A stretch of 64,000 bases of DNA. It comes from an uncultured Bryobacterales bacterium (GTDB lineage: Bacteria; Acidobacteriota; Terriglobia; Bryobacterales; UBA6623). Location: NCBI GenBank assembly GCA_964461235.1, contig CAYWUV010000019.1, positions 6,271-70,270 on the forward strand. The letters are read 5' to 3'. How positions within the stretch are numbered: the stretch's first letter is position 1; the number at the start of each line of letters is the position of its first letter. The notes beneath the pieces are model-generated. The model had not been told where the DNA came from. It saw only the letters and a program-made list of their open reading frames with translations, and searched no databases. Of this stretch, positions 383 through 60,053 are shown piece after piece. The position numbers were made by a program, and so were the translations under genes.

Positions 383-457
<75 letters not shown>

Positions 458-7231: not shown

Positions 7232-7284
7232 CGCAGCCTACGGAACTTGACCCGTGGTTCGGGACCACCCTGGGCCCCTCACGA

Positions 7285-7490
7285 GACTCGGCTTGGGCGC
7301 GACCGCCTTGGCCAGTCTGTTCCCGGACTAGACGGCGAACCGCGCGGCAGCCGTGCCGGCGGTTGAACTCAGCGAGCCGTCCTAGCTGAGGCAACCACTC
7401 TTCGTCCCGAGTGCAAAAAACGTCATTTTCGTGTGCATGATCGGCCGCGCAAGTCAGCTTGAGACAGTCGATCACAAGCCGCTATTGACA
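7285..7490 (+). pseudogene. Fossil 5' fragment of a DUF1501 gene
   Basis: About 205 nt align without gaps to 7690-7895 of the intact DUF1501 gene 405 bp downstream (roughly 70% identity by eye). Conserved blocks include actcggcttgggcg, tggccagtctg, gtgccggcgg and gcgcaagtcagcttgaga..cgatcacaagccgct. In-frame TAG codons occur at 7329-7331 and 7383-7385. Confidence 0.7.
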
Positions 7491-7625
7491 GGTGGTGAAC
7501 AGCGGAGCCCCGGTGGGTGTCCTCTGTGCTCCGCACCAGAGCGGATGCCTCACGAGAAGAGGACAGTTACCTCCTCTCTCATGTACAATACCGCCACGCC
7601 CTCACGGGCCTGAGCGAGTTCTTCC

Positions 7626-9098
7626 ATGTCGATTGGCGCAGGCCATGGAATTCGACCGGTTGGCTGGGACCGCCGTGGGTTCTTCAAGGAACTCGGCTTG
7701 GGCGGCATCGCTCTGGCCAGTCTGCTCGCGGACCAGACGGCGAGTGGAGCGCCAACCGTGCCGGCGGCAGACCTTAGCGATCCGCTGGCGTCCCGGCGGC
7801 CCCACTTCGCTCCGAAGGCGAGGAGCGTCATCCTCCTGTTCATGGTCGGTGGCGCAAGTCAGCTTGAGACGTTCGATCACAAGCCGCTCTTGAAAAAGTA
7901 CGCCGGAGAATTGGCAAGAGACGTTTTCTCCAAGGAAGACCTCGAAAGCCTTAACCCGGAAAAGACGTATACCCACACGCGTATCGTTCCGCCGGTCTTT
8001 TCCTTTAAGCGCTATGGCCAGAGCGGCGCGTGGGTCAGCGAGATCTTCCCGAGGTTGACACAAGTCGTCGACGACATCGCGTTCATCAACGCGATGTACA
8101 CCGATTCGGCACTGCACTCCACCGGCCAGATCCTCATGCACACGGGATATTCCAGACAGGGCCACCCCAGTCTTGGCTCGTGGGTGACCTACGGACTGGG
8201 GACGGAGAACCGGAATATGCCGGGATTCGTGGTGATGACGGACGGCCGACCGTCGGGCGGGCGCGCGCTTCACGATGCCGGTTTCCTCCCGCGCATCCAC
8301 CAGGCCACCCTAGCGGACGTCAAGCCCGGCAATCCACCGGTGCCGCACATATCGGCGCCGCCGTTTCTCAGCCGGGACCAGCAGAGCAAGCAGCTGGATC
8401 TAGTGCGGAAGTTGAATTACCTCCATCGCGGGATGCACCGCACGCAGCCCGAGCTCGACGCGCGCATCGCTGCGTTTGAAACAGCGTTTCGCATGCAGAT
8501 GGAAGCGCCGGACCTCTTCGATATTCGTAATGAGCCCGACTCGGTGAGGGAGCTCTATGGAGACACCGACTTCGGGAGGAAGTGCCTCACGGCCAGACGG
8601 CTCGTGGAGAGCGGGGTCCGTTTCGTAGAGATTCTCGACGGCGCCCAGGGACGGCGATGGGACGCGCATGGAAACCGCGGCGGGCTCATTGACAACCACC
8701 GCATGAACGCGGCCCGCACCGACCAAGGCATCACGGCCCTCATCATGGATCTGAATTCACGTGGGTTGCTGGACGAGACCCTTGTGGTCTGGGCCACTGA
8801 GTTCGGTCGCACGCCAATGGAGGAGTCGCGTAAGGAGAAATCCCTCGGCCGCGGCCATCACCACTTCGGCTTTTCCATGTGGATGGCGGGCGGCGGCGTC
8901 AAGCCGGGGATAACCCACGGCGCCACAGACGAGCTCGGCATGCACGCCGTTACGGGCCGCGTCTCGCATCACGACCTTCATGCCACCATCCTCCACCTAC
9001 TGGGCCTGGATCACGAGCAGCTCACGTTCCGCCACAATAGCCGCGACTTCCGGCTGACCGACGTCTACGGCAATGTTGTCCACGAGCTGATTTCCTGA
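7626..9098 (+). CDS. DUF1501 protein (sulfatase/alkaline-phosphatase-like, Tat signal)
   Basis: Twin-arginine N-terminus (DRRGFFKELGLGGIALASLLA), LLFMVGGASQLETFDHKP, and WATEFGRTP...GRGHHHFGFSMWMAGGGVKPG, all typical of DUF1501. Confidence 0.9.
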   Translation: MSIGAGHGIRPVGWDRRGFFKELGLGGIALASLLADQTASGAPTVPAADLSDPLASRRPHFAPKARSVILLFMVGGASQLETFDHKPLLKKYAGELARDVFSKEDLESLNPEKTYTHTRIVPPVFSFKRYGQSGAWVSEIFPRLTQVVDDIAFINAMYTDSALHSTGQILMHTGYSRQGHPSLGSWVTYGLGTENRNMPGFVVMTDGRPSGGRALHDAGFLPRIHQATLADVKPGNPPVPHISAPPFLSRDQQSKQLDLVRKLNYLHRGMHRTQPELDARIAAFETAFRMQMEAPDLFDIRNEPDSVRELYGDTDFGRKCLTARRLVESGVRFVEILDGAQGRRWDAHGNRGGLIDNHRMNAARTDQGITALIMDLNSRGLLDETLVVWATEFGRTPMEESRKEKSLGRGHHHFGFSMWMAGGGVKPGITHGATDELGMHAVTGRVSHHDLHATILHLLGLDHEQLTFRHNSRDFRLTDVYGNVVHELIS

Positions 9099-9241
9099 TT
9101 GGGCACTGTCAATCTGATGCTGGCCACGCGACACCGGGCTGGCATCCCTTGCAGCTCGTTCTCCCATGGCGGACCCGAGCAATGCGCAACTCGACCTTCA
9201 TCCTTGCCCTAAGAACCTCTGGTCGGCGAGACGAGCAAACC

Positions 9242-10726
9242 ATGACCTACATCCGGAACTGGGCCCCTATGCTCCGTCTCGCGATGGTCATCTCCGTGGG
9301 AGCCGGGCTTCTGGCCGCCCAGAAGCCAAACTTCGTACTCGTCTTGGCGGACGATATGGGGTGGCGGGACTTGGGCAGCTACGGCAGCACCTACTACGAG
9401 ACGCCCCACATCGACCGCCTCGCCAACGAGGGCGTTCGCTTCACCGACGCGTACGCGGCGGGGAACTCCTGCTCGCCGACCCGCGCGAGCATCCTTACGG
9501 GCAGGTACCCGGCGTCAACGCACGTGACCGACTGGATTCCCGGCCGGACGCCGCCGGGTTCGAAGCTCGCCATTCCGAAATGGACGAACTACCTGCGTCA
9601 CGACGAAACGACGATTGCCGAGGCCCTCGCCGAGGCCGGTTACGTTTCAGCCTCGATCGGCAAGTGGCACTTAGGGAAAAAGGGCTGGTGGGCCGAGGAT
9701 CATGGTTTCCAGTTCAGCGTGGGCGGCAGCCACGCGGGTTCCCACAGCAATATGTTCCCCCCTTACTGGCCGGCCGAGAGAGTGGCCCGGCTCGGTTGGC
9801 GGCCGTTTCCCGACGAGCGCCCCGGCGAGTACCTGACCGACCGTATCACCCGCGAGGCCGAAGCCTTCCTCGACCGCCACGGAGACCGACCCTTCTTTCT
9901 CTACCTCTCGCACTACGCGGTTCACACACGGATCGAAGGAAGGCCGGAGGTCGTAGAGAAGTACCGCAGGAAACGGCCGAGCGGTTCGCAGAGGAATCCG
10001 GAATACGCGGCCATGGTCGAGGGACTGGACCAGAGCGTCGGAGCCGTCATCGCCAAGCTCGAGGAATTGGGGGTTGCGGAACGAACCGTCGTCATCTTCT
10101 TCTCCGACAACGGAGGCCTATCGAAGGACGGCCGAATTACATCGAACCTGCCGCTTCGAGGGGAGAAAAGCACGGCTTGGGAAGGCGGCGTACGCGTACC
10201 GCTGATCGTCAAATGGTCCGGTCAGCCGGAAGGCCTGGTCGTCGATGAGCCGGTGATCAGCGTTGACCTGTTCCCGACAATCCTAGACATCGCTGAGGTG
10301 GATGCACGGGCAAGAGTAGACGGCAAGAGCTTGACCCCGCTGCTCAAGGGCGACGGGGATTTCCATCGAGGACCGATCTATTGGCACTACCCGCATTACA
10401 ACGCACACACACCGATCGTTACCTGTACTCCGTACGGGGCCGTGCGGGTGGGGCCGTTCAAGCTGATTGAGTTCTACGAGGACGGGCACACCGAACTCTA
10501 CGACCTTCGCGAGGACATCGAGGAGACGAACGACCTCGCCGCGGCGATGCCGGACAAAGCTCGTGAGCTTCTGGCCAAACTGCAGTCCTGGCGCGAGTCG
10601 GTGGGAGCGCAGATGGCGACCATCAATCCGGGAGCCGACGCAGTTCGGTATCGCGAATACAAGGAAAAGAGGCAGTGGAAACCGGTCGGCGTCTACGAGC
10701 AGCAGACAGCGTTTCCTCGACCATGA
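9242..10726 (+). CDS. Cys-type sulfatase (arylsulfatase A family)
   Basis: Signal peptide, then NFVLVLADDMGWRDLGSYG and the CSPTR formylglycine motif. The ORF is open from 9149; ATG 9242 was chosen because it gives a normal signal peptide, but the start is uncertain (9149/9182/9242). Confidence 0.88.
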   Translation: MTYIRNWAPMLRLAMVISVGAGLLAAQKPNFVLVLADDMGWRDLGSYGSTYYETPHIDRLANEGVRFTDAYAAGNSCSPTRASILTGRYPASTHVTDWIPGRTPPGSKLAIPKWTNYLRHDETTIAEALAEAGYVSASIGKWHLGKKGWWAEDHGFQFSVGGSHAGSHSNMFPPYWPAERVARLGWRPFPDERPGEYLTDRITREAEAFLDRHGDRPFFLYLSHYAVHTRIEGRPEVVEKYRRKRPSGSQRNPEYAAMVEGLDQSVGAVIAKLEELGVAERTVVIFFSDNGGLSKDGRITSNLPLRGEKSTAWEGGVRVPLIVKWSGQPEGLVVDEPVISVDLFPTILDIAEVDARARVDGKSLTPLLKGDGDFHRGPIYWHYPHYNAHTPIVTCTPYGAVRVGPFKLIEFYEDGHTELYDLREDIEETNDLAAAMPDKARELLAKLQSWRESVGAQMATINPGADAVRYREYKEKRQWKPVGVYEQQTAFPRP

Positions 10727-11474
10727 TTCGCTCCCCGAAGACATGGGTACCGGATTGCCCCCTGAATCGAAGGCTGGCGATCCTGCCCACCCGATGGCTC
10801 GTTCGCAGGGAGATCCGAGAGAGAGCGGCGTGAACAAGATCTTGGAGGCTTCCCGGCTCGACGGGCACTGGCGATCAGCGTCACGCTCAGCGGCCTCTTC
10901 CTCGCCGATGTGGCAACGGGAGGCCCGGGTCGTGCCGTCGGCCGGTCGAACCAAGTCCGGAGCGCAGGCAAACTCGCTTCGAGCTCGCGTTCGAAGCGGA
11001 CCGAGCGGTTAACGAACGGGATAGGCTGTTCTGGCGCAAACGGTTTTGATGCGAGCCTTGAGGTGCTCGGTCGGGTCGTCGACCTCGGGCGGGCGCTCCG
11101 TCAAGGTGAAGGCAAACTCCTTGGATTCCGCGACGTGAACGACCCAAGAGGAGTCGCCTCCGCACTCGCGAAGCGGTTTCGGGCCCTTTATCCCGGCGGG
11201 TCCGCCGGACCAAGGTCGGGGCGCCAGTCGAACCTGGTCAGTCTGACTGATTCATGAACGGTAGGCTAATGGTGTTGGAAGGCACATTCACTCCTACGAT
11301 CTGTTCTTTCTACGTTGCGGCAATTCTGCCGCTGAAGGCACAACGGCGATTTCGTTCGACAGTCCCCCGTAGGACGGCGATTGGCTGCGAGAAACGCCTG
11401 AAGCGCCCCTTGTTCACGCCGATCCCGCTGTCTTGCGATCAGCTCCGACGGATCCGCCGGCACCAGAATGTTGC

Positions 11475-11503
11475 TTGACTACAGACGGTGATCGCCGTAG
11501 TCT
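11475..11503 (+). promoter_or_regulatory. Putative promoter of the DUF1501 four-gene block
   Basis: TTGACT at 11475-11480, a 17-nt spacer, then TAGTCT at 11498-11503. An AAGGGGG Shine-Dalgarno sequence precedes ATG 11538. Confidence 0.35.
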
Positions 11504-11537
11504 GGGTGCAAGCCCGCAACCCGTAAGGGGGTAGTGG

Positions 11538-12917
11538 ATGTTTCGTCTAGACGCCGATAAGACCGTGGAATTCTGCGACGGAACGCGCCGTCGCGACTTC
11601 TTGCACGTGGGTTCGCTGAGCCTGCTGGGACTCGGGATGCCCGAGTTCCTCCAGATGCAGGCCCAAGGGGCCGCCACGGACAACAGCAAGGACATCAACG
11701 TCATCATGCTGATGCTGGTGGGCGGTCCCTCTCAACTCGATACATTCGACATGAAACCGGAGGCCCCGATCGAGATCCGCGGGCCCTTCCAGCCCATCAA
11801 AACGAACGTTTCCGGCATCGAGATCAGCGAGAACTTTCCGCGCATGGCGCGACACGCTGACAAATACGCCCTGCTCCGAGGTTGCTATCACAACGCAGCT
11901 GCGGTGCACGCGATGGGGCACCAACTGTTCCAGACGGGCCGTCTGTCCTTGGGCGGCATGGAGCATCCGCACATCGGCTCGGTACTGGGGTATATCAAGG
12001 GCTCCAACGGCGACTTGCCGCCGCATGTCCTGCTTCCGAAAATCATTGGGCCGACTGGCGGAAACTTCAAGCCGGGGCAGAGCGCGGGGTATCTGGGCAA
12101 ACGCCATGACCCGTTTGTGCTCAACGCCGATCCGTCAGTGGCGGATTTTCAGGTGCCCGACATGCTGCCTCCGGACTACCTCTCGGCGTTGCGAGTCGAC
12201 CGGCGCAGGAACTGGCGGTCAATGATCGACAAGGCGGTCAGCAAGTTCGAGACTTCGCAAGACGCGCGCCTGCTGGATTCGACGTTCCACCAGGCGTACA
12301 CACTGATGACCTCCGAGAACGCGCGCAAGGCCTTCGATCTCCATCGCGAGAACGAGGGCACCCGCGACAAGTACGGCCGCAATCGGTTCGGCCAGAGCTG
12401 CTTGCTCGCCCGCCGCCTAGTGGAGTCCGGAGTGCGTTTCGTGACCGTCAACATGTTCGAGACGGTGTTCGACGAGATCACCTGGGACATCCACGGTTCG
12501 CCGCCGTTCAGTCCCATCAGCGGATACAGGGATCTGATGGGGCCCATGTTCGACAACGCGTTCACGTCGCTGCTCGAGGACTTGAGCGACCGGGCCATGC
12601 TCGACTCAACCATGGTCCTCGCACTAGGCGAATTCGGCCGGACGCCGAAGGTGAACCCGGCCGGCGGTCGGGACCATTGGCCGCAAGCATGGACAATTGT
12701 CGGCGCTGGGGGCGGAATCCAAGGTGGACAGGTGATCGGTTCGACCGACAAGATCGGCGGAGCGCCGAAGGATCGCCCGGTGCATCCATCGGAGATCGTG
12801 GCCACGATCTACCGCCAATTGGGGATTCCCCTGGAAACCGAGTTGCCCGCCGCCAACGGCAGACCGCTGCCGGTGGTGGATCGAGGCGTGGAGCCGATTC
12901 ACGAGCTGTTTTCGTAG
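11538..12917 (+). CDS. DUF1501 protein (Tat signal)
   Basis: TRRRDFLHVGSLSLLGLG, IMLMLVGGPSQLDTFDMKPEAP, and LGEFGRTPKVN..GGRDHWPQAW. Strong RBS. Confidence 0.9.
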   Translation: MFRLDADKTVEFCDGTRRRDFLHVGSLSLLGLGMPEFLQMQAQGAATDNSKDINVIMLMLVGGPSQLDTFDMKPEAPIEIRGPFQPIKTNVSGIEISENFPRMARHADKYALLRGCYHNAAAVHAMGHQLFQTGRLSLGGMEHPHIGSVLGYIKGSNGDLPPHVLLPKIIGPTGGNFKPGQSAGYLGKRHDPFVLNADPSVADFQVPDMLPPDYLSALRVDRRRNWRSMIDKAVSKFETSQDARLLDSTFHQAYTLMTSENARKAFDLHRENEGTRDKYGRNRFGQSCLLARRLVESGVRFVTVNMFETVFDEITWDIHGSPPFSPISGYRDLMGPMFDNAFTSLLEDLSDRAMLDSTMVLALGEFGRTPKVNPAGGRDHWPQAWTIVGAGGGIQGGQVIGSTDKIGGAPKDRPVHPSEIVATIYRQLGIPLETELPAANGRPLPVVDRGVEPIHELFS

Positions 12918-12989
12918 GCCTTCGGCCTAGTCGGCCACCGCCGACTGCTAAGCGATGACCGATCTGAGAGAGGAGGTGGATGCTTTCCG

Positions 12990-15449
12990 ATGGTGATTCC
13001 TCGTCTCGTATTGGCCTTCGCGGCCGTCTGCTGGGCAGTTCCGGGGCAGTCAGCGCAGGACATCAAGATCCTTCCTGCGTCTGTCGAGCTCCATGGTCCC
13101 GACGCACGCCAGCAGCTGCTGGCGCAGGTGACCACCGACGGCATACAAACGGATTGGACTTCGAACGCCAACTGGGTTTCGGAGAATCCCGAGATTGCCT
13201 CGGTCGACGCCGGCGGGCTGGTGCGGCCGGTGTCAGACGGCTCGGCAGTGATCCGCGTGGAGGCCGACGGCCTTAAGGCGAGCCTGACGCTGAACGTCAC
13301 GGGCGCTCGGGGCGATTCCTCGTGGGGCTTCCGGCAACATGTGATCCCCGTTCTAACGAAGAAGAGCTGCAACTCCGGTGCGTGCCACGGCGCGGCGGCA
13401 GGGAAGAACGGCCTGAAGCTCACCTTGCGCGGATACGACCCGGCGGCCGACTACAACGCTCTGACGCGCGAGGCTACCGCTCGCCGTGTCTCGCTGGCTG
13501 ACCCTGCTGCCAGCCTGTTCTTGCTGAAGCCGACCATGACGATTCCTCACGGGGGTGGCAAGAGGATCGCTGTTGACTCGCTCGAGTATCAAGTGCTCTC
13601 CGAGTGGGTCGCGGCGGGCGCCCCGGGTCCGAGAGAGGACGATCCCGTCGTGGTCGGGTTGGAAGTCTATCCCCGCGCAGCCATGCTCGTGCCGGATTCG
13701 AGACAACGGCTCGTAGTGCGCGCAAGATACTCCGACGGCCGCGTCGCTGACGTCAGCCGCTGGGCGAGATGCAGTTCCACGGACGCCGCCGTCGCAGAAG
13801 TCAGCGACGACGGCGTCGTGACGATGGTGGGCCGCGGGGAGGCTGCGATTACCGTGGCGTATGCGACGAGCGTGCTCTACGCACGCCTCACAGTTCCCCA
13901 CGACAACGAGATCAGCCAGGAAGAGTTCCACCGACTGGCGGTCAACAATTTCATTGACGAGCGGGTGCTGACAAAGCTGCGCAAGCTCCGCATCGCGCCT
14001 TCGGAGCCAGCCGACGACCCGACATTCCTGCGCCGGGCCTACCTCGACGCCGCGGGCATCCTGCCCACCGCCGAGGAAGTCGAGAACTTTCTCTCCGACA
14101 CCTCAACCGACAAGCGTCGCCAGTTGATCGACCGCTTGCTCGAACGCCCCGAATTTGCCGACTACTGGGCTTACAAGTGGTCCGACCTGCTTCTGGTCTC
14201 CACAAACCGCAACCACCTGAATCGCACGGCGCTGTGGGACTTCTACAACTGGATTCGTGACAGCGTTGCTGAAAACAAACCCTGGGACCGGTTCGCGCAG
14301 GATGTCTTTGCCTCGAGCGGCAGTAGTCGAGAGAACGGAGCGCTGAACTACTTCGTGCTCCACAAGGACACGATCGAACTGGCGGAAAACACGACACAGG
14401 CCTTCATGGGCCAGACGCTAACGTGTGCCCGTTGCCACAATCATCCACTTGAAAAGTGGACCCAGGTCCAGTACTACCGCTTCGCCAATCTGTTCACTCG
14501 TATTGGCATCAAGTCAGGCGACGAACCCGGGGATTCGATCATTTTCGAGAAGGACTTCGGCGACATTTCCCACCCGCGTACGGGATACCCCCTCCCGCCG
14601 ACTCCGCTGGACGGCGAGGAAATGGCGCTGGATTCCCAGGATGACCGAAAACTGCACCTGGCCGAATGGCTGACAAGCGAGGACAATCCATACTTCGCGC
14701 GCAACATTGTCAGCCGCGTCTGGGCCAGTTTCTTCACGCGAGGCTTGGTTGACCCACCGGACGACTTGCGCGCTACGAATCCGTCCTCGAACGAGGAATT
14801 GTTCGACGCGCTGGTCGAGGACTTTGTCGAGCACGGCTACGACGTGAAGCACTTGATCCGGCGGATCATGAATTCGGGCACCTACCAGCTCTCCTCGACG
14901 CCGAACGCATCGAACGAACGCGATGACAAGTACTACTCGAAGTACCAAGTCAAGCGACTGCCCGCAGAGGTGATACTGGACGCCATGTCATCGATTTCCG
15001 GGAAGGAATCGAGGTTTGAAGACTACCCCATTGGGATGCGGGCAATCCAGCTGCCGGACGTGCAGGTGGAATCGCAGTTCCTGGAATCGTTCGGACGGCC
15101 GTTGCGACTGGTGTGCGATGTCGAAGAGCGCTCGGACGACCCGAGCGTCGCCCAGGCCTTGCACGTGATCAACGGCGAGACGCTCAACGGAAAGCTACGG
15201 GCGGAAGAGAACAACATCGCATCGTTCTTGAAGCTCGGCCTGTCGGATCGGAAGATCGTGGAACACCTGTTTCTTTCGGCATTCAGCCGGTACCCCACGG
15301 AGTCGGAGGAGCAGAAAATCGTGGAGGAACTCAAGGAAGCACGCGGTGATCAGGGATCCGGGCGAGGCAGAGACCGCTCGAGACGAGAGTCTCTCGAAGA
15401 TTTGACCTGGGCATTGCTGACATCGAGGGAGTTCCTGTTCAACCACTAG
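12990..15449 (+). CDS. BIG2 + PSCyt3-like + DUF1549 + DUF1553 protein
   Basis: Signal peptide, then Ig-like BIG2 segments (ASVDAGGLVRPVSDGSAVIRVEA; AVAEVSDDGVVTMVGRGEAAITV). Also CNSGACHGAAAGKNGLKL, FIDERVLTKL...FLRRAYLDAAGILPTAEEVENFL...LLERPEFADYWAYKWSDLL, CARCHNHPLEKW, and a C-terminal ...LLTSREFLFNH. Confidence 0.9.
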   Translation: MVIPRLVLAFAAVCWAVPGQSAQDIKILPASVELHGPDARQQLLAQVTTDGIQTDWTSNANWVSENPEIASVDAGGLVRPVSDGSAVIRVEADGLKASLTLNVTGARGDSSWGFRQHVIPVLTKKSCNSGACHGAAAGKNGLKLTLRGYDPAADYNALTREATARRVSLADPAASLFLLKPTMTIPHGGGKRIAVDSLEYQVLSEWVAAGAPGPREDDPVVVGLEVYPRAAMLVPDSRQRLVVRARYSDGRVADVSRWARCSSTDAAVAEVSDDGVVTMVGRGEAAITVAYATSVLYARLTVPHDNEISQEEFHRLAVNNFIDERVLTKLRKLRIAPSEPADDPTFLRRAYLDAAGILPTAEEVENFLSDTSTDKRRQLIDRLLERPEFADYWAYKWSDLLLVSTNRNHLNRTALWDFYNWIRDSVAENKPWDRFAQDVFASSGSSRENGALNYFVLHKDTIELAENTTQAFMGQTLTCARCHNHPLEKWTQVQYYRFANLFTRIGIKSGDEPGDSIIFEKDFGDISHPRTGYPLPPTPLDGEEMALDSQDDRKLHLAEWLTSEDNPYFARNIVSRVWASFFTRGLVDPPDDLRATNPSSNEELFDALVEDFVEHGYDVKHLIRRIMNSGTYQLSSTPNASNERDDKYYSKYQVKRLPAEVILDAMSSISGKESRFEDYPIGMRAIQLPDVQVESQFLESFGRPLRLVCDVEERSDDPSVAQALHVINGETLNGKLRAEENNIASFLKLGLSDRKIVEHLFLSAFSRYPTESEEQKIVEELKEARGDQGSGRGRDRSRRESLEDLTWALLTSREFLFNH

Positions 15450-15495
15450 GCACCAAGTCCTCAGACCGAATCTCTGGAGGGAGCGTCGGCAAGCG

Positions 15496-16938
15496 ATGGC
15501 GAGACGAGAAAGGCACGAGGGATTTCGAAGTTGCAGACCCATGAGAGGCCTGCAAGGGCCGGTGCGGATCGGAGCCTGGATTGGAGCCCCTTCCGTTCCC
15601 CCACGGGCTGCAATGGCACTGCTGACCCTGTTTTTGCCCGGGGCAACTGCACCAGCGGCAGAACAGGGCTCACCTTCGTATACTGCCGACATTGCACCGA
15701 TTCTCACGCGCAACTGTGTCGCCTGCCATTCCGCTCACACCAAGATGGGCGGGCTGACTCTCGAAACGTTCGTCGGTCTCGAATCGGGCGGAGTACACGG
15801 CCCCTCGATTGTTCGCGGCAACAGCGCGGAAAGCCGGCTGTACCTGATGGTCGCCGGAAAGATGGAACCGAGAATGCCGTTGTCCGCCAGTCCCCTGGGC
15901 TCCGCCGACGTGGAAATGCTGCGGCGTTGGATCGACGCGGGCGCACCGGGTCCCAATCCAGGCGACGCACCCACTCGAGTCGAGCGCGGGCGCTTGCCGC
16001 GAATCGAGCCTGCCGTCGCAGTCAAGCCGCAGATCTTCGCTGTCGCCTACCACCCCGGTGGGCGCCTGCTTGCTGCGGGACGCCACGGCGGCGTCGCCCT
16101 GACCGATGCCTCGACGGGGGGAGCAGTCGTGTTCCTCGACGGACTCGCCGATGTCGCGCGCACGGTCGCGTTCTCGCCGGACGGGCGCTTCCTTGCAGCC
16201 GGTGGCGGGCATGCGCAGCAGGGCGGCGAGGTCAGGATCTGGCAAGTAGCGGATCATCGCCTGGAAGCAACGATCCGAGGTCACGGCGATACGATCCAAG
16301 CTCTGGCATTCTCGCCGGACGGCAAGATCCTGGCAACAGCGAGCTACGACAAGGACATCAAGCTGTGGGATGTTCGTTCCGGCCTTGAGCTGAGGACGCT
16401 GCGAGACCACATCGACGCCGTCTACGCACTTGCGTTCACCCCGGACGGGGATCGTCTGCTGTCGGGTTCGGCGGACCGGTCGGTCAAGATCTGGAACACG
16501 GAAACCGGAGAGCGCTTGTACACGCTGAGTGATCCCATCGACGGCGTCAACTCGATCTCGATCCATCCTTCGGGAACGCGAGTCACGGCAGGCGGCTACG
16601 ATCGGACGATTCGGGTCTGGGAACTGGGCGAAGACGATGGCAAGCTGCTCAATGTGCTGATCGCTCACCAGTCGCCGATCCTGCGAATTACCTATTCGCC
16701 CGACGGGAGAAAGATCGTCACCACGGCGGCAGACCGGACCATCAAGGTCTTCGACGCCGAGACCCTGGATGAACTGACGACCCTGGACGCGCAATCCGAT
16801 TGGGTGATGTCGCTGGACTACTCCCCGGATGGGCGTCATCTCGCGGCCGGCCGTTTCGACGGGTCGCTCAGCATTTACGACAGCGTCACCTACCGCGACC
16901 AACTGAGCATTAGTGAATCTGCGAGGGAACTGCCATGA
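15496..16938 (+). CDS. PSCyt1 (CxxCH) domain + WD40 beta-propeller protein
   Basis: IAPILTRNCVACHS...RLYLMVAGKMEPRMP...LRRWIDAGAP, followed by about seven WD40 repeats (e.g. TVAFSPDGRFLAAGG, ALAFSPDGKILATASYDKDIKLWD, GSADRSVKIWN). The start is ambiguous (15496/15541/15613). Confidence 0.87.
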   Translation: MARRERHEGFRSCRPMRGLQGPVRIGAWIGAPSVPPRAAMALLTLFLPGATAPAAEQGSPSYTADIAPILTRNCVACHSAHTKMGGLTLETFVGLESGGVHGPSIVRGNSAESRLYLMVAGKMEPRMPLSASPLGSADVEMLRRWIDAGAPGPNPGDAPTRVERGRLPRIEPAVAVKPQIFAVAYHPGGRLLAAGRHGGVALTDASTGGAVVFLDGLADVARTVAFSPDGRFLAAGGGHAQQGGEVRIWQVADHRLEATIRGHGDTIQALAFSPDGKILATASYDKDIKLWDVRSGLELRTLRDHIDAVYALAFTPDGDRLLSGSADRSVKIWNTETGERLYTLSDPIDGVNSISIHPSGTRVTAGGYDRTIRVWELGEDDGKLLNVLIAHQSPILRITYSPDGRKIVTTAADRTIKVFDAETLDELTTLDAQSDWVMSLDYSPDGRHLAAGRFDGSLSIYDSVTYRDQLSISESARELP

Positions 16939-19373
16939 ATCGACCAATCGCGACCGCTTCGATCTTTCTCTTGGCGGCCGGCATGGCCAGAGCCGAGCGC
17001 GCGGCTGACCACCCCACCGGCAGCCGGACGACCCCGCCGACCATCGAGTCGATAGAGCCTCGGGGCGTTTCGCTAGGCGGTACGCACACGCTGACTGTGG
17101 AGGGGTACAACTTGCGTGGCGCTTCCGCGGTGCAGTTCAGCGACCCATCGGTTCTTGGGCGCATCGTGGAAGTCACGAACATGCCGGATGTCCCGGAGAA
17201 GCCCAGACTGGGAGCAGCGGGTTTGGTCTCAACCGTCGACCTGGGGCCGCAGCCTCCCCGGTACCAGGTGCGGATTGACCTGACGGTTGATAGGGGAGCC
17301 GATATCGGGCCAGTGCGATTTCGCCTCGCAACGGATTTCGGCACCAGTCCCGCGGGCGAGATGCTGATCGAGCCCGAGTTCCAAGTCTATGCCGAGGACG
17401 GACCAGCGCGGGGGGGTGACACCGATGCGGACCATCCACGGACGGCTTCGCTGCCCGCGATCCTGTCGGGGGTAATTTCCGAACCGGGCGACACGGACTA
17501 TTTTTCAATCAACGTCGAGGCGGGCCAGGAGGTGGTCTTTGAGGAGAGCGGCATGAAGGTGGGCTCGAAGATCGAGCCGATCATCGATCTCCTATCCGCT
17601 GATCACACAGCTGTCCGCCTTGGCAGGCAAGAGCGAGACCGGCCCGGCCGAGCCTTCTCACACCGATTCGAGACGGCGGGGAGGTATTTCGTCCGCGTCA
17701 GCGACTACCAGAAGAATGGCAGCCAAGGCCATTTCTACCGCGTGAAGGTAGGTGACTACCCGGTGGTCGAATCGGCGTACCCCCTCGGCGTGCGGCGCGG
17801 CGAGACTTCGACAGTAGCCCTGAGGGGATTCAACCTGGGCGACGGAAAGTTCGAAGTCCGAGGCGAGCCCTCCTGGATGGATGCCCGGAGGGTCCTGGTT
17901 CGCCCCGAAACGGAAAACGGGCGCGCCTTCAACGCCGTCAAGCTGGCCTTGGGTGATCACCCGGAGGTGGCGGCGAGCGGCAGCAACACATCTGTGGGAA
18001 CGGCACAGCGAGTGGCTGCACCCGTGACCATCAACGGTCGCTTGACCGACCCCTCTCACTATTTCCGTTTCGAGGCGAAGAAGGACCAGTCGGTTCTCGT
18101 CGACGTGACAGCGGCTCAGGTGGGCTCGCGACTCGACTCAGTGATCGACGTCCTAGCGAGGGACGGCGAGCCGATTGAGTCCGCCACGGTCCGTGCCGTT
18201 GCCGTGACCTACACCGACCTGTTCGACCACACGTCCGAGCAAGCCGAGATTCGATTGCAGCTCTCGAATGACTTCGACGCGGGCGACTACCTGATGCTCG
18301 GAAGCGAGGTGATGCTCGTGACCCGGATGCCGCGGCAGCCGGATGAAGGCATCGCTCTCGAATCGTTCCCGCCGATCATTCCCGGACGGCCGACCGGTGG
18401 CGCTGTCCGACTCTCCTCGTTCGGCACGAGCCCGCAAGCACATGCCAAGGGCACTCCGATGTACAAGGTCCAAATCCATTCCCCTGGAGCGCAGTTTCCT
18501 CCGAACGGCTTGCCGGTGGTGCGGCTCCACTACCGCAACGACGACGGGCCGTTCCCCCACGGCAAGGACTCCTTCCTGGAGTTCAAGGCCCCGGCAGACG
18601 GCGAATACCTGGTCCGTATCCGCGACACCCATGGCCGTAGCGGGGAAGACTACGGCTATCGGTTGGCGTTGCGTCCACGGCGGGAGGACTTTCAGCTGAC
18701 GGCGGATCCTCGCACGCCGAACATTCCCCAGGGCGAACGGATCCCTCTGCGGGTGACGGCCCTGCGCGAGGACGGGTTCGACGGTGCGATTCACATTTCC
18801 GTAGAGGACTTGCCTACTGGAGTTCACGCCCAAGACACAGTCATACCGTCGGGACAGATGGTCGCGACCGTGATGCTGCGTGCCGATTCCGACGCCAGGA
18901 TCGGCGAGGCGGTCCCACTGAAGATTCGCGGTACGGCGGAGGTCGGCGGGAAAACAGTCTCCAAGCAAGCCAACCAAGGTGACCGACTGCAGTTCATTGC
19001 CGTCACCGCCCCCGCCGACATTCTCATCACGACAGACAAACGCGAAGTCGTGCTCGAACCTGGCCAGGATGCCAGGATCACCGTCTTGGTGACTCGCAAG
19101 AACGGGTTCGGGGGTCGAGTCCCGGTGGAGGTTCTCAATCTGCCACCTCACACCGATACACCCGAGGTCGGGCTGAACCGCATCATGATCACAGAGGAGC
19201 AAGATTCGAGGACGTTCTCGATTCGGGCGCTGGCAGGCGCGAAGCCCCTCGAGCAGTTGATCTACGTCGCCGGCATAGTAGAGACTCGTTCCCCGCAACC
19301 GACCTCATTCACAGCCGAGCCGATAGTTCTGAGAATCGTCGCCAAACCGGGAGGCGCGGCGGGTGGCGAATAG
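16935..19373 (+). CDS. Secreted IPT/TIG + multiple PPC (pre-peptidase C-terminal)-like domain protein
   Basis: Signal peptide. An IPT-like segment (PTIESIEPRGVSLGGTHTLTVEGYNL), then repeated PPC-type modules (GDTDYFSINVEAGQEVVFE, SHYFRFEAKKDQSVLVDV, FKAPADGEYLVRIRD). Its ATG overlaps the upstream stop codon (ATGA). Confidence 0.8.
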   Translation: MNRPIATASIFLLAAGMARAERAADHPTGSRTTPPTIESIEPRGVSLGGTHTLTVEGYNLRGASAVQFSDPSVLGRIVEVTNMPDVPEKPRLGAAGLVSTVDLGPQPPRYQVRIDLTVDRGADIGPVRFRLATDFGTSPAGEMLIEPEFQVYAEDGPARGGDTDADHPRTASLPAILSGVISEPGDTDYFSINVEAGQEVVFEESGMKVGSKIEPIIDLLSADHTAVRLGRQERDRPGRAFSHRFETAGRYFVRVSDYQKNGSQGHFYRVKVGDYPVVESAYPLGVRRGETSTVALRGFNLGDGKFEVRGEPSWMDARRVLVRPETENGRAFNAVKLALGDHPEVAASGSNTSVGTAQRVAAPVTINGRLTDPSHYFRFEAKKDQSVLVDVTAAQVGSRLDSVIDVLARDGEPIESATVRAVAVTYTDLFDHTSEQAEIRLQLSNDFDAGDYLMLGSEVMLVTRMPRQPDEGIALESFPPIIPGRPTGGAVRLSSFGTSPQAHAKGTPMYKVQIHSPGAQFPPNGLPVVRLHYRNDDGPFPHGKDSFLEFKAPADGEYLVRIRDTHGRSGEDYGYRLALRPRREDFQLTADPRTPNIPQGERIPLRVTALREDGFDGAIHISVEDLPTGVHAQDTVIPSGQMVATVMLRADSDARIGEAVPLKIRGTAEVGGKTVSKQANQGDRLQFIAVTAPADILITTDKREVVLEPGQDARITVLVTRKNGFGGRVPVEVLNLPPHTDTPEVGLNRIMITEEQDSRTFSIRALAGAKPLEQLIYVAGIVETRSPQPTSFTAEPIVLRIVAKPGGAAGGE

Positions 19374-19693: not shown

Positions 19694-20851
19694 CTACGAC
19701 CCCCCTGCCATGAGGTTCTCGAAGATGTGAGCCTGGTCGCGACAGCCTACGGCGAGGTCGAGATCCCCGTCCCCATCGATGTCCCCCAGCACCGCTTCGT
19801 GGGCCGGGCCGGTCGTCTTCGCGGACCACGCGGGTTCGGACGAGAGCTGTCCCCCGTCATTCCGATACAGGTAAATGCTGCCACCGTCAGCGTAGTCGGC
19901 GGCGATCATGTCATCGTCACCGTCGCCGTCCACGTCGCCGAACTCAAGACCGTGGAAGGCGGTTTCAGTCGGACTGCTCCACAGGACTTCCGGCGTGCCA
20001 CCGTCGTCCGGGACGGCTAGCTGCACGCTTCGTCCGACCTGATTCCGCCAGGGCCCCTTGGCGCAGAACAACTCCGGTACGGCGTCGCCATCGAGGTCGC
20101 GCCAATATAGCCGCTGGGTCCAACGGCTTTCGAGGTCTTCGAAGATCGTCGTCCCGTCATCGAATTGCCCGTCAGAATTCCGAAACACGACAATTGCGCC
20201 TTCTTGGTAAGCCGCGAGGATGTCCAGGTCCCGATCTCCGTCAAAATCAGCGAATATCGCGCTCTCCGAATACTCTTCCCTGCCGAGTTTGCGCGACACC
20301 TGGGGAGATGGCGTCCCGGACTCGTTCTCGAACACGGCGACACCGTTGATCGGCTCGCCCGCGGCCATCACCATGTCAAGATCGCCATCCTGATCGAAGT
20401 CTCCGAAGTCAATCTGATTCGCATTTGCAATCAGCCCTGTTTCCCAGTCAGGGAGCACTCCGAATTCACCGGACCGGTTCAAGTAGAGCGTGCAATAGCT
20501 CTCGTGAGTGCCCGCCAAGTCGGCCCAGCCATCATGGTTGAAGTCCAGCACGTCGATGTGATCGCAATCCGTGGTTTTCGAGGACTCCCAGAACGGTTCG
20601 AGAGCGATTGCGCCATTGTCGTTCCGGTACGCCACCCAGCGTCGAGGATCCGGGGCGCTGGTCACGAAGTCGGGATCGCCGTCGCGGTCGATATCGATGA
20701 ATCGAGCGATGCCATCGCCGCCCGAGGTGGCCGTGCCGCTGCTCCAGATCGGCTGGCTCGAGAAGGGGGCGTGCCCTTGGTCAGCCTCGGAACAGGCTGC
20801 GTGGAGCAGAAGCACAGCTGCCGCGATCGGGACGGAATTACTCGGAATCAT
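19694..20851 (-). CDS. FG-GAP/VCBS repeat (integrin-alpha-like beta-propeller) protein
   Basis: Signal peptide plus seven Ca-binding-type repeats (DIDRDGDPDF, DFNHDGWADL, GDFDQDGDLDMV, ADFDGDRDLDIL, RDLDGDAVPEL, GDVDGDGDDDMI, GDIDGDGDLDLAV). Confidence 0.85.
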   Translation of the reverse strand: MIPSNSVPIAAAVLLLHAACSEADQGHAPFSSQPIWSSGTATSGGDGIARFIDIDRDGDPDFVTSAPDPRRWVAYRNDNGAIALEPFWESSKTTDCDHIDVLDFNHDGWADLAGTHESYCTLYLNRSGEFGVLPDWETGLIANANQIDFGDFDQDGDLDMVMAAGEPINGVAVFENESGTPSPQVSRKLGREEYSESAIFADFDGDRDLDILAAYQEGAIVVFRNSDGQFDDGTTIFEDLESRWTQRLYWRDLDGDAVPELFCAKGPWRNQVGRSVQLAVPDDGGTPEVLWSSPTETAFHGLEFGDVDGDGDDDMIAADYADGGSIYLYRNDGGQLSSEPAWSAKTTGPAHEAVLGDIDGDGDLDLAVGCRDQAHIFENLMAGGS

Positions 20852-25227: not shown

Positions 25228-25492
25228 AAGTCCGCAGTCCGGTTTGCCTCCGGCTCCCCGGGGCTTTCAGAACGTCACGTCTTGTTACGACGCACGGGAC
25301 TCGGTGCGATTGCGCTGGTTCCGGAGCTTCGTGGACGCACACCGGCAGCGCAGCGGGGCCGTTTCGGACTGTGTGACTTCCGGCCCGCCACAGTTGAGGA
25401 TCGTTGAGCCCCGGACTGTTCCCGGGCGCGCTCCCGGTCGAATCCCGACCAGCCTCTCCGGGACCGCGCTACTGCTAGCATGGGCCGAAACC

Positions 25493-36537: not shown

Positions 36538-38437
<1,900 letters not shown>

Positions 38438-38445
<8 letters not shown>

Positions 38446-40516: not shown

Positions 40517-40517
40517 G

Positions 40518-42644: not shown

Positions 42645-42973
42645 CGGCCAGGGCCAAACTTGGAATCCTACAATACTCCGCCCCGTACGCGCTCATGCCG
42701 AGCGTCCGGAAGTGAGCCCACCGACACCGGACCGGCACGGCAAGACCTGAATTGACCGTCCCGAGGAGCATGTTTATGATGGGGGTAACGGTCGCGCTTT
42801 CGGCGGCTCGGGTGGCGCTTATTGGTTCCGCGGACGGAAGGCCTTCCACCCGGAGTGTAGGTGCCGTTACGACTGGGCTTCGTCACCCTTGAGCTGGCTG
42901 GTCACCTCAACGCACCCCGTAACGGTCGGCTATTCCCCGTTCGATTCCCAGAGGCCCGAGGAGCGTATTGGAA

Positions 42974-44776: not shown

Positions 44777-44780
44777 ATTC

Positions 44781-48812: not shown

Positions 48813-48897
48813 ACCCGACCGCGAAGAGCACCGATTGGATAGGCCCTGAGCTATGTTCGATGGTTCTCTCGAAACGCGGGGCCACGGCCAGCCAGCG

Positions 48898-54492: not shown

Positions 54493-54534
54493 GCACACCT
54501 CCCGCACACCCGATCCGATCACCTTCTGCGACCG

Positions 54535-60046: not shown

Positions 60047-60053
60047 CACCACC

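What the first reader, a model, noticed from the sequence alone, without database searches (positions are those of the whole stretch)
11475..19373. Tight four-gene block: DUF1501, BIG2-DUF1549/1553, CxxCH-WD40 propeller and PPC/IPT protein
The four same-strand genes are separated by 72 bp, 46 bp and a 4-bp overlap (ATGA at 16935-16938), behind one plausible promoter (TTGACT-17-TAGTCT). All four proteins have export signals.

The block combines four kinds of part:
- a hydrolase-like DUF1501;
- two proteins with PSCyt-type CxxCH motifs, one of them fused to a seven-bladed WD40 scaffold;
- Ig-like BIG2 domains;
- an 812-aa protein built from IPT and three PPC modules, which are usually substrate- or surface-binding.

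This looks like a dedicated envelope multiprotein machine of unknown function. It is the most elaborate version of the PSCyt/PSD-DUF1501 theme in the window and a good candidate for an undescribed system.
Basis: partly seen in the sequence, partly recalled or inferred. Interest (0 to 1): 0.68.

Follow-up and report, generated by a model that had tools for sequence, protein, structure and literature searches.

The report
Conserved four-gene exported DUF1501/PSCyt operon
Four tightly packed genes for exported proteins (a sulfatase/phosphatase-like enzyme, a partner with haem-type motifs, a haem-plus-propeller protein and a large binding protein) are kept in the same order in at least three bacterial phyla, but the module was already described in 2012 and its function is still unknown.

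Summary
Four + strand genes (11538-12917, 12990-15449, 15496-16938, 16935-19373) are separated by 72 bp, 46 bp and a 4-bp ATGA overlap, and carry the stated domains.

The block is a real conserved unit:
- In 63 Bryobacterales-type loci with enough upstream DNA, 62 keep gene 3 next to gene 4, and 53 keep all four genes in order.
- Orthologous sets in the same order occur in Hydrogenedentota and Planctomycetota. Identity to the window proteins is 58-62% (gene 1), 47-49% (gene 2), 40-43% (gene 3) and 31-34% (gene 4).
- In those phyla genes 3 and 4 are fused into one protein. 72 of the 150 best representative relatives of gene 4 are such fusions.

It is not undescribed. Kamneva et al. 2012 (PMC3542564) reported exactly this four-gene cluster in PVC bacteria, with function unknown.

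My best reading is an exported complex. A Tat-exported alkaline-phosphatase-superfamily enzyme pairs with its PSCyt2/PSD1 partner. A WD40/beta-sandwich platform (genes 3+4) and c-type haem are accessories. The chemistry is inferred, not shown.

Verdict: new member of a known kind, moderate interest.

The parts
11475..11503 (+). Candidate sigma-70-type promoter: -35 TTGACT (11475-11480), 17-nt spacer, -10 TAGTCT (11498-11503). An AAGGGGG ribosome-binding site follows at 11525-11531.
   Evidence: Sequence read. The site is below the consensus-scan threshold. TTGAC[TG]-17-TAnnCT and the GGGG site are conserved in 8 of the 14 aligned upstream sequences (the window and 13 close relatives) while the flanks diverge.
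11538..12917 (+). Gene 1: Tat-exported DUF1501 protein (459 aa), an alkaline-phosphatase-superfamily enzyme candidate. Tat motif RRRDFL at 11586-11603. Conserved motifs: GGPSQLDTFD (11721-11750), WDIHG (12483-12497), GEFGRTP (12627-12647), GGRDHW (12663-12680).
   Evidence: Pfam DUF1501 E=3e-100. Invariant residues are shared with paralogues. hhalign against sulfatases gives 93.6% probability, E=2e-7, over the C-terminal 94 columns. There are weak LtaS/sulfatase hits in PDB. No C/S-x-P-x-R motif is present.
12990..15449 (+). Gene 2: exported 819-aa protein. Layout: signal peptide; Big_2 (13062-13298); PSCyt1-like domain with CNSGACH (13368-13388) and PHGGG (13545-13559); second Big_2 (13632-13889); PSCyt2/DUF1549 (13953-14504, CARCHNH at 14424-14444); PSD1/DUF1553 (14649-15326).
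   Evidence: Pfam. Both Big_2 domains match a teneurin-like PDB chain. The PSCyt1-like region gives BLASTP E=5e-7 against the gene 3 N-terminus. CN[SQG]G[ASP]CH and CARCH are present in all 63 orthologous ORFs that reach that part of the protein and across phyla. A His 54-55 residues after the motif is conserved.
15496..16938 (+). Gene 3: exported PSCyt1 c-type cytochrome domain (about 15679-15945; CVACH at 15715-15729; distal Met in RMPL at 15871-15882) fused to a seven-repeat WD40 propeller (about 16018-16905). Start codon uncertain (15496, 15541 or 15613).
   Evidence: Pfam. 60 of 60 CxxCH-bearing orthologues and 46 of 46 fused relatives have MP within 75 residues after the haem His; in the 60 orthologues the distance is 46-51. 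19 of 78 orthologues lack the cytochrome domain.
16935..19373 (+). Gene 4: exported 812-aa all-beta protein, overlapping gene 3 by ATGA. It has about 7-8 beta-sandwich domains (an IPT-like first domain and PPC-like domains around aa 165-275, 360-465 and 505-582). A conserved mature N-terminal motif DHPTGSRTTPPTI lies at 17007-17045.
   Evidence: AF2 model pLDDT 81, pTM 0.75. Foldseek returns only generic Ig/macroglobulin-domain (MG) chains and the ColG PPC tandem 5iku. Pfam PPC 30.5 bits. More than 197 homologues exist, all named 'hypothetical'. The N-terminal motif is absent from all 72 fused relatives.

Best explanation
This is the Acidobacteriota (Bryobacterales-type) copy of a single, orthologous, cross-phylum operon. 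It is the 'complex' four-gene form of the PSCyt/PSD-DUF1501 theme first noted in PVC bacteria.

Shown here:
- The four genes form a conserved, tightly coupled unit.
- Genes 3 and 4 are one functional unit, and are literally one protein in other phyla.
- Gene 1 keeps the residues that are invariant across DUF1501 paralogues.
- Gene 2 keeps two invariant Cys/His motifs.
- The gene 3 cytochrome domain has the full His/Met signature of a class I c-type cytochrome, but is dispensable in some lineages.

Inferred:
- All four products are exported. Gene 1 goes folded through Tat and the others through Sec. They then assemble in the periplasm.
- Gene 1 is the catalytic subunit, a metal-dependent ester hydrolase or transferase of the alkaline-phosphatase superfamily. 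It is not a formylglycine sulfatase.
- Gene 2 is its obligate partner, as in the many two-gene PSD/DUF1501 pairs. It probably carries covalently bound haem or another Cys/His-bound cofactor.
- The WD40 propeller plus the PPC/Ig array (genes 3+4) is a platform that captures or positions a macromolecular substrate.
- The gene 3 haem is an accessory redox link rather than the core of the chemistry.
- The enzyme is about 60% identical across phyla and the flanking genes are not conserved. I therefore expect a conserved, general substrate rather than a niche-specific glycan.
For: - Synteny: of 63 loci with at least 5.7 kb upstream of gene 4, 62 have gene 3, 58 have gene 2 and 53 have all three in order, 49 of them contiguous. 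Junction medians are -4, +1 and -4 bp.
- Cross-phylum conservation: 6 of 7 sampled loci from Hydrogenedentota, Planctomycetota or unnamed metagenome assemblies have DUF1501, then Big2/PSCyt2/PSD1, then the fused gene.
- Orthology: identities to the window are 58-62%, 47-49%, 40-43% and 31-34%. The window's own paralogues reach only 31-33% (DUF1501) and 26-28% (PSCyt2/PSD1).
- Fusion: 72 of the 150 best representatives of the gene 4 family carry an N-terminal gene 3-like part.
- Enzyme fold: hhalign of DUF1501 against sulfatases gives 93.6% probability, with GEFG aligned to the SDNG metal-ligand strand. There are weak LtaS/sulfatase PDB hits.
- Motifs: the haem signature of gene 3 is complete wherever the domain is present, with MP in 60 of 60 and 46 of 46. 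The Cx4CH and CARCH motifs of gene 2 are invariant.
- Export: a conserved Tat motif and Sec signals are present.
- Promoter: a footprint is conserved among close relatives.
- Prior description of the same cluster: PMC3542564.
Against: - There is no experimental datum on transcription, assembly, haem content or activity.
- The N-terminal half of DUF1501, where the nucleophile should lie, did not align to sulfatases. The chemistry is therefore open.
- The PSCyt2/PSD1 model was poor (pLDDT 64) and matched nothing in PDB. Its role as 'partner' rests only on gene pairing.
- The invariant Cys/His motifs in gene 2 may mean that redox chemistry is central, not accessory.
- In about 10 of 63 loci genes 1-2 are absent or separated from genes 3-4. 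The two halves can therefore be unlinked.
- Window neighbours (sulfatases) and the sugar isomerase/epimerase genes downstream of gene 4 in 25 related loci hint at carbohydrate metabolism, against a 'general substrate'.
Confidence: 0.6

Rival explanations
1. It is a substrate-specific accessory of polysaccharide degradation. The module would bind and de-esterify (desulfate or dephosphorylate) one class of glycan in the periplasm, like a specialised member of the sulfatase/glycosidase gene neighbourhoods.
For: - The window has sulfatases at 9149-10726 and 25118-26881, an alpha-L-fucosidase at 61711-63162, and two other PSD/DUF1501 pairs.
- He et al. 2017 (PMC5615132) report PSCyt genes next to sulfatases and carbohydrate-binding inserts.
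- In 25 related loci, gene 4 is followed on the same strand by a 404-aa unknown protein, and 23 loci carry a D-psicose-3-epimerase-like gene about 1.2 kb past the end of gene 4.
- Sulfatase or MR_MLE genes lie near the module in L083, L084 and L087.
Against: - Flanking genes are not conserved between clades.
- About 60% identity of the enzyme across phyla, and one locus per assembly among the 80 retrieved, is unusual for niche-specific glycan genes.
- Genes 2-4 show no recognised carbohydrate-binding module.
- No SusC/SusD-type or TonB-receptor gene is consistently adjacent.
Confidence: 0.2
2. It is primarily a periplasmic electron-transfer or redox enzyme module, as Kamneva et al. proposed. 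The haems of genes 2 and 3 would form a relay to or from a Tat-exported cofactor enzyme (gene 1), and redox chemistry on the substrate would be the point of the system.
For: - Cx4CH plus a conserved His, and CARCHNH, are invariant in gene 2 across phyla.
- Gene 3 has a complete class I cytochrome c signature.
- Some fused relatives carry two or three CxxCH motifs and a cbb3-type cytochrome c domain.
- One relative (P0139) joins a gene 4-like part to a DUF2231 membrane domain and PSCyt1.
- Tat export is typical of cofactor-containing enzymes.
- The proposal is made in PMC3542564.
Against: - Gene 1 belongs to a hydrolase/transferase superfamily with no known redox members (and established knowledge of the alkaline-phosphatase superfamily).
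- The gene 3 cytochrome domain is missing in 19 of 78 Bryobacterales orthologues and in about 26 of 72 fused relatives.
- PSCyt2 did not resemble any cytochrome in sequence or in the (poor) model.
- Haem binding has never been shown for any PSCyt domain, as far as the searched literature goes.
Confidence: 0.15
3. It is a module tied to intracellular membrane compartments. Kamneva et al. reported a correlation of 0.852 between this cluster and intracellular membranes in PVC species.
For: The correlation reported in PMC3542564.
Against: Orthologous modules occur in at least 80 genome assemblies, mostly labelled Bryobacterales or Acidobacteriota (244 species genomes encode a relative of gene 4), and in Hydrogenedentota. 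Such compartments are not a known trait of these groups (my own knowledge). The correlation may simply reflect phylogeny, as the authors themselves concede.
Confidence: 0.03
4. The adjacency is fortuitous: a DUF1501/PSD pair happens to sit next to unrelated WD40 and PPC genes.
For: DUF1501/PSD pairs are abundant in such genomes, with three in this window alone.
Against: The same orthologues recur in the same order in 53 of 63 informative loci and in other phyla. Genes 3 and 4 are fused in 72 of 150 representatives.
Confidence: 0.01

Closest known systems
Four-gene DUF1501 cluster of PVC bacteria (Kamneva et al. 2012, Genome Biol Evol 4:1375, PMC3542564)
   Same: It has the same four protein types: DUF1501 with a Tat signal; a signal-peptide protein with weak PPC hits and otherwise unassigned regions; PSCyt1/Big_2/PSCyt2/PSD1; and PSCyt1/WD40. 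Its function is also unknown.
   Different: - It was described from Planctomycetes, Verrucomicrobia and Lentisphaerae, whereas this copy is in Acidobacteriota.
- The PSCyt1 part of gene 2 here is below the Pfam threshold and has Cx4CH instead of CxxCH.
- The gene 3-gene 4 fusions, the cytochrome-less gene 3 variants and the cross-phylum identity values found here are not mentioned in the passages of the paper that I read.
Two-gene PSCyt1-PSCyt2-PSD1 + DUF1501 pairs (Studholme et al. 2004 families; two examples in this window at 5030-9098 and 56684-61517)
   Same: The same two core families sit adjacent on one strand, with a Tat signal on DUF1501.
   Different: - The gene order is reversed: the pairs run PSD then DUF1501, the module runs DUF1501 then PSD.
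- The pairs are multi-copy and divergent, with only 31-33% (DUF1501) and 26-28% (PSCyt2/PSD1) identity to the module's proteins.
- The pairs have no WD40 or PPC partner.
- The pairs often carry Laminin_G_3 or other inserts instead of Big_2.
Alkaline-phosphatase superfamily enzymes: type I sulfatases, LtaS, Tat-exported phospholipase C/acid phosphatase (PlcH/AcpA type)
   Same: Gene 1 shares the C-terminal core, including the metal-ligand strand (GEFG aligned to SDNG or GDHYG). Some members of the superfamily are also exported by Tat.
   Different: - Gene 1 has no C/S-x-P-x-R formylglycine motif.
- The nucleophile region is not alignable.
- There is no solved structure or assayed member of DUF1501.
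- None of the known enzymes has an obligate PSCyt/PSD-type partner.
Cytochrome c fused to a beta-propeller in periplasmic enzymes (cd1 nitrite reductase, quinohaemoprotein alcohol dehydrogenases)
   Same: A monohaem class I-type cytochrome c domain is joined to a beta-propeller in an exported protein.
   Different: In those enzymes the propeller is eight-bladed and holds the catalytic cofactor (haem d1, PQQ). Here it is a canonical seven-repeat WD40 scaffold with no cofactor signature, and the cytochrome domain is dispensable in some lineages.
PPC / collagen-binding domains of clostridial collagenase ColG (PDB 5iku)
   Same: The tandem PPC-type beta-sandwich fold is matched by the gene 4 model (Foldseek E=4e-9).
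   Different: Sequence identity is only 10% and the TM-score is low (0.34 on the target). Gene 4 has no protease domain and has five or more extra Ig-like domains.

Membership tests
Kamneva four-gene DUF1501/PSCyt module | DUF1501 protein, often with a twin-arginine signal | tested here: met
   Pfam DUF1501 E=3e-100. RRRDFL at aa 17-22, conserved.
Kamneva four-gene DUF1501/PSCyt module | Signal-peptide protein with weak PPC hits and otherwise unassigned regions | tested here: met
   Gene 4: PPC 30.5 bits and nothing else. Sec signal present.
Kamneva four-gene DUF1501/PSCyt module | PSCyt1/Big_2/PSCyt2/PSD1 protein | tested here: met
   Big_2, PSCyt2 and PSD1 are found by Pfam. The PSCyt1-like part is found only by BLASTP against gene 3 (E=5e-7) and has Cx4CH.
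Kamneva four-gene DUF1501/PSCyt module | PSCyt1/WD40 protein in the same cluster | tested here: met
   Gene 3: PSCyt1 E=3.9e-9 and WD40 E=5e-60.
Alkaline-phosphatase superfamily (gene 1) | Conserved alpha/beta core with the metal-ligand strand preceding the C-terminal subdomain | tested here: met
   hhalign against sulfatases: 93.6% probability, E=2e-7, 94 columns. LtaS hit E=0.0045.
Alkaline-phosphatase superfamily (gene 1) | N-terminal metal-binding Asp and nucleophile (Ser/Thr/formylglycine) aligned to known members | tested here: inconclusive
   The N-terminal half did not align. S65 and D71 are conserved (S65 invariant, D71 nearly so) and are only candidates.
Type I (formylglycine) sulfatase (gene 1) | C/S-x-P-x-R motif | tested here: not met
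   Absent from gene 1 and from the paralogue. Present (CSPTR) in the window's true sulfatase.
Class I c-type cytochrome (gene 3 N-terminus) | CxxCH plus a distal Met about 50 residues downstream | tested here: met
   CVACH at aa 74-78 and Met127 in RMPL. MP is present in 60 of 60 orthologues and 46 of 46 fused relatives.
Class I c-type cytochrome (gene 3 N-terminus) | Covalently bound haem | not testable with these tools
   Needs expression and haem staining or mass spectrometry.
c-type cytochrome (gene 2 PSCyt2 domain) | Cytochrome c fold around CxxCH | tested here: inconclusive
   CARCHNH is invariant. However, the profile finds no PDB cytochrome, and the model is poor with no fold match.
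WD40 seven-bladed propeller (gene 3) | Seven WD-type repeats | tested here: met
   Pfam WD40 and many propeller families over aa 175-470. Seven repeats counted in the translation.
Polysaccharide utilisation locus (SusC/SusD type) | Adjacent TonB-dependent transporter and SusD-like binder | tested here: not met
   None next to the block in the window. An outer-membrane barrel family appears in only 12 of 80 loci, at variable positions.
Known anti-phage defence systems | Match to PADLOC models | tested here: not met
   Only a generic WD40 match for gene 3.

The most novel reading that the evidence does not exclude
The module is a new kind of periplasmic enzyme complex. An alkaline-phosphatase-superfamily catalytic subunit would be gated or driven by covalently bound haems on its PSCyt/PSD partner. 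A WD40-PPC receptor would dock through the conserved N-terminal HPTGxRTTPP peptide of gene 4, which is absent when the two proteins are fused, and would deliver a conserved envelope or polymer substrate. As the single-copy, cross-phylum form, it would be the ancestral or core version of the very large PSCyt/PSD-DUF1501 families, and so the key to their function.
Probability: 0.15. Interest if true: 0.75.

Novelty: new member of a known kind. Interest (0 to 1): 0.42.

Why it matters
The PSCyt, PSD and DUF1501 families are present in tens of copies per genome. For example, each of the PSCyt2 and PSD1 domains occurs 41 times in Rhodopirellula baltica (PMC2754498). They occur in Planctomycetota, Verrucomicrobiota and Acidobacteriota, which are abundant soil and water heterotrophs. 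No function has been assigned since the families were defined in 2004.

The four-gene form appears to be a single orthologous set. It is conserved at about 60% identity (enzyme) across at least three phyla, and gene fusions tie two of its parts together. That makes it a cleaner target for genetics and biochemistry than the many divergent two-gene pairs.

For this particular window, the result is mainly a correct annotation: a known but uncharacterised module, now also documented in Bryobacterales-type Acidobacteriota.

Tried and rejected
1. Sequence searches of genes 1, 2 and 4 against PDB found nothing useful, except Big_2 matches to a teneurin-like protein. Profile searches gave only weak LtaS/sulfatase hits for gene 1 and nothing for PSCyt2/PSD1.
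2. Foldseek of the good gene 4 model returned only generic chains of Ig/macroglobulin-type domains (TM 0.10-0.16) and the ColG PPC tandem. No functional analogue emerged.
3. The AF2 model of the PSCyt2/PSD1 half was poor (pLDDT 64) and had no fold match (best E=2.6).
4. NCBIfam gave no family for genes 1 and 2, and only sub-threshold hits for genes 3 and 4. PADLOC gave nothing relevant. Rfam found only a tRNA in the window.
5. I looked for extra conserved genes around the block. None is shared by all clades. The genes inserted between genes 2 and 3 in a few loci are unrelated (MacB-type permease, AAA ATPase, peptidase A4).
6. The consensus scan found no promoter upstream and no convincing terminator (3 found against 6.3 expected). 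The promoter is supported only by conservation.
7. Literature searches for DUF1501, DUF1549, DUF1553, PSCyt and the Pfam accessions found no functional study. The prokaryotic WD40 survey only notes DUF1501 as a frequent neighbour in Planctomycetes.
8. The cluster look-up gave no organism names for relatives on long contigs, so I could not name a cultured host.
9. Chance adjacency and a defence-system reading were considered and rejected (see the rival explanations).

Full report
**Observation.**
The region holds four + strand ORFs: 11538-12917 (459 aa), 12990-15449 (819 aa), 15496-16938 (480 aa) and 16935-19373 (812 aa). The gaps are 72 and 46 bp. The last junction is an ATGA overlap (ctgccATGAatcg). 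GC content is like the rest of the window.

Pfam confirms the domains:
- Gene 1: DUF1501.
- Gene 2: Big_2, PSCyt2/DUF1549 and PSD1/DUF1553.
- Gene 3: PSCyt1 plus a WD40 propeller.
- Gene 4: only a weak PPC hit.

Gene 2 in fact has two Big_2 domains, at aa 25-103 and 215-300. Between them lies a PSCyt1-like domain that Pfam misses. It aligns to the gene 3 cytochrome domain (BLASTP E=5e-7). It carries CNSGACH (Cx4CH) instead of CxxCH.

The window also holds two ordinary PSCyt1-PSCyt2-PSD1 + DUF1501 pairs, at 5030-9098 and 56684-61517. They sit next to a sulfatase and an alpha-L-fucosidase.

**Is the block a unit?**
Gene 4 has more than 197 homologues of 770-834 aa, all called 'hypothetical' and mostly from Bryobacteraceae/Solibacterales MAGs. 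A scan of one genome per species found relatives in 244 genomes. I kept the best 80 loci with 10-kb flanks and searched them with the window's proteins.
- Of 63 loci with at least 5.7 kb upstream of gene 4, 62 have gene 3 directly upstream.
- 58 have gene 2.
- 53 have genes 1, 2 and 3 in the window's order and strand. 49 of these are contiguous and 4 have an insertion.
- The inserted genes are unrelated.
- Junctions, measured from the longest possible ORF starts, have medians of -4, +1 and -4 bp.
- Identity to the window falls in the order gene 1 (71-94%), gene 2 (56-88%), gene 3 (44-84%), gene 4 (43-84%).

The flanks are not conserved. The one exception is a subclade in which a 404-aa unknown protein follows gene 4, usually with a D-psicose-3-epimerase-like gene after it.

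However, TTGAC[TG]-17 nt-TAnnCT and the GGGG ribosome-binding site are conserved in 8 of the 14 aligned upstream sequences (the window and 13 close relatives), while the surrounding sequence has diverged.

**Beyond Acidobacteriota.**
A profile of gene 4 was run against 1.84 billion representative proteins. It found 16,016 clusters at E<=0.001 and 3,489 at E<=1e-30.

Of the best 150, 72 are longer proteins with a gene 4-like C-terminal part. Their N-terminal part matches my gene 3 profile. Pfam confirms PSCyt1 plus WD40 there in five of the six I checked; the sixth (P0129) has WD40 but no PSCyt1 hit. Genes 3 and 4 are therefore one polypeptide in many lineages. This is classical fusion evidence that they work together.

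The fused forms come from Hydrogenedentota, Pirellulales and Isosphaera. In 6 of 7 fused-gene neighbourhoods sampled, the order is DUF1501, then a 789-823-aa Big2/PSCyt2/PSD1 protein, then the fused gene, sometimes with one or two small genes between. This is the window's order.

Identity of these proteins to the window's is 58-62% (gene 1), 47-49% (gene 2), 40-43% (gene 3) and 31-34% (gene 4). The window's own paralogues reach only 31-33% (DUF1501) and 26-28% (PSCyt2/PSD1). This is one orthologous module spread over at least three phyla.

**Prior description.**
Kamneva et al. 2012 (PMC3542564) analysed DUF1501 neighbourhoods in PVC genomes. [quoted passage not shown] These were DUF1501, sometimes with a twin-arginine signal; a protein with weak PPC support and a signal peptide; PSCyt1/Big_2/PSCyt2/PSD1; and PSCyt1/WD40. 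They suggested membrane-targeted electron transport and a link to intracellular membranes. The function was left open.

He et al. 2017 (PMC5615132) noted PSCyt genes near sulfatases. I found no functional study. The system is therefore not undescribed. What is added here:
- its presence in Bryobacterales-type Acidobacteriota and in Hydrogenedentota;
- the gene 3-gene 4 fusions;
- the cytochrome-less variants;
- the degree of cross-phylum conservation.

**What the parts say.**

*Gene 1.* It keeps every residue that is invariant across DUF1501 paralogues (S65, D317, H319, E365, R368, H380 and others). A profile-profile comparison with sulfatases gives 93.6% probability over the C-terminal 94 columns. 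GEFG aligns to the sulfatases' SDNG metal-ligand strand. PDB profile hits to LtaS and S1 sulfatases fall on the same segment. There is no formylglycine motif, whereas the window's true sulfatase has CSPTR. The N-terminal nucleophile region did not align. Gene 1 is thus a probably active alkaline-phosphatase-superfamily enzyme of unknown specificity, exported folded through Tat.

*Gene 2.* CN[SQG]G[ASP]CH and CARCH are present in all 63 orthologous ORFs that reach that part of the protein, and across phyla. A His 54-55 residues after the Cx4CH is conserved. The helical PSCyt2/PSD1 half has no relative in PDB by sequence. Its AF2 model was poor (pLDDT 64) and matched nothing.

*Gene 3.* Wherever the cytochrome domain is present, it has one CxxCH and an MP motif within 75 residues after the haem His. 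This holds for 60 of 60 orthologues, where the distance is 46-51 residues, and for 46 of 46 fusions. That is the His/Met signature of class I cytochromes c (established knowledge). However, 19 of 78 Bryobacterales orthologues and about 26 of 72 fusions are WD40-only.

*Gene 4.* It models well (pLDDT 81, pTM 0.75) as 7-8 beta-sandwich domains. Only generic Ig/macroglobulin-domain chains and the ColG PPC tandem come up as structural matches. Split gene 4 proteins carry a conserved motif, [DE]HPTGxRTTPPTI, right after the signal peptide. It is absent from all 72 fusions. I therefore suspect it docks gene 4 onto the propeller. This is inference only.

**Mechanism.**
My best-supported reading (confidence 0.6 for the whole, much lower for the chemistry) is an exported complex.
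- The Tat-exported enzyme (gene 1) works with its PSCyt2/PSD1 partner (gene 2), as in the many two-gene pairs.
- The propeller plus PPC/Ig array (genes 3+4) captures or positions a macromolecular substrate.
- The gene 3 haem is accessory, since it is often lost. The Cys/His motifs of gene 2 are essential.
- High cross-phylum conservation and unconserved flanks argue for a general rather than niche substrate.

The rivals are as follows:
- A glycan-specific accessory, favoured by sulfatase neighbours and by the downstream sugar isomerase/epimerase genes in a subclade.
- A true redox machine, favoured by the invariant motifs and multi-haem variants.
- The compartment hypothesis, weakened by the module's presence in Acidobacteriota.
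- Chance adjacency, which is refuted.

**Verdict.**
The block is a real, conserved, probably co-assembling module. It is a new member, in another phylum, of a kind described in 2012, and its function remains unknown. Interest is moderate. It is a clean entry point into very large families of unknown function, but nothing here is categorically new.

Noticed in passing
window 5030-10726: A canonical PSCyt1-PSCyt2-PSD1 gene (5030-7231) is followed by DUF1501 (7626-9098) and a type I sulfatase with CSPTR (9149-10726). The order is PSD then DUF1501, the reverse of the four-gene block.
   Followed up: partly
window 56684-63162: A third pair: a 1120-aa PSCyt1-PSCyt2-Laminin_G_3-PSD1 protein (56684-60046) and DUF1501 (59982-61517), followed by an alpha-L-fucosidase (61711-63162).
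   Followed up: partly
window 10727-11537: An 811-bp stretch between the sulfatase and gene 1 has no convincing ORF and no Rfam match. No gene is called there in the identical metagenome contig L001 either.
   Followed up: partly
L019-L076 (25 loci), e.g. L031:5023-7052: In a Bryobacteraceae subclade, gene 4 is followed within 400 nt on the same strand by a 404-aa protein with no Pfam, NCBIfam or PDB match. In 23 loci a D-psicose-3-epimerase-like TIM-barrel gene lies about 1.2 kb past the end of gene 4. Neither has a homologue in the window.
   Followed up: partly
window 17007-17045 (gene 4 aa 25-37): The motif [DE]HPTGxRTTPPTI at the mature N-terminus is conserved in split gene 4 proteins, has low pLDDT, and is absent from all 72 gene 3-gene 4 fusion proteins. 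It may be a docking peptide for the WD40 propeller.
   Followed up: partly
L019, L021, L023-L025, L030, L037, L039-L042, L046, L052, L054, L062, L064, L069, L071, L073: 19 of 78 gene 3 orthologues are WD40-only (281-436 aa as longest ORFs, no CxxCH). The adjacent gene 2 keeps both Cys/His motifs.
   Followed up: yes
protein P0139 (representative library): A 1268-aa relative has the gene 4-like part at its N-terminus, followed by a DUF2231 membrane domain and a C-terminal PSCyt1 domain. This hints at a membrane-anchored redox link. Its genomic context could not be looked up.
   Followed up: no
L082:15194-15973 and L088:10369-11127: A PhyH-family (Fe/2-oxoglutarate oxygenase) gene lies downstream of the fused gene in two unrelated loci. 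AhpC/Redoxin-domain genes lie nearby in L088 and L089. There are too few cases to judge.
   Followed up: no
window 36538-46601: A glycogen metabolism cluster: branching enzyme, 4-alpha-glucanotransferase, an isoamylase-like gene, a starch-synthase-type glycosyltransferase and a phosphorylase.
   Followed up: no
window 51061-56604 (- strand): A 1153-aa CarboxypepD_reg plus outer-membrane beta-barrel protein lies next to a 608-aa protein with multihaem cytochrome motifs (Paired_CXXCH, cytochrome c7) and a TPR repeat. This shows that the organism matures c-type cytochromes.
   Followed up: no
window 19694-20851 (-), 46968-48812 (-), 48853-50712 (+): Three FG-GAP/VCBS-repeat proteins, two of them with ASPIC/UnbV domains. 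The first lies directly downstream of the block on the opposite strand and is kept only in the closest relative, L006.
   Followed up: no
window 383-457: tRNA-Asn (GTT), the only RNA gene found in the window.
   Followed up: yes
window 15496-15633: The start of gene 3 is ambiguous. The longest ORF adds about 40 residues, rich in Arg and Pro, before the hydrophobic signal-like segment. ATG codons at 15541 and 15613 are alternatives. With 15613 the gene 2-gene 3 gap would be 163 bp, not 46 bp.
   Followed up: partly
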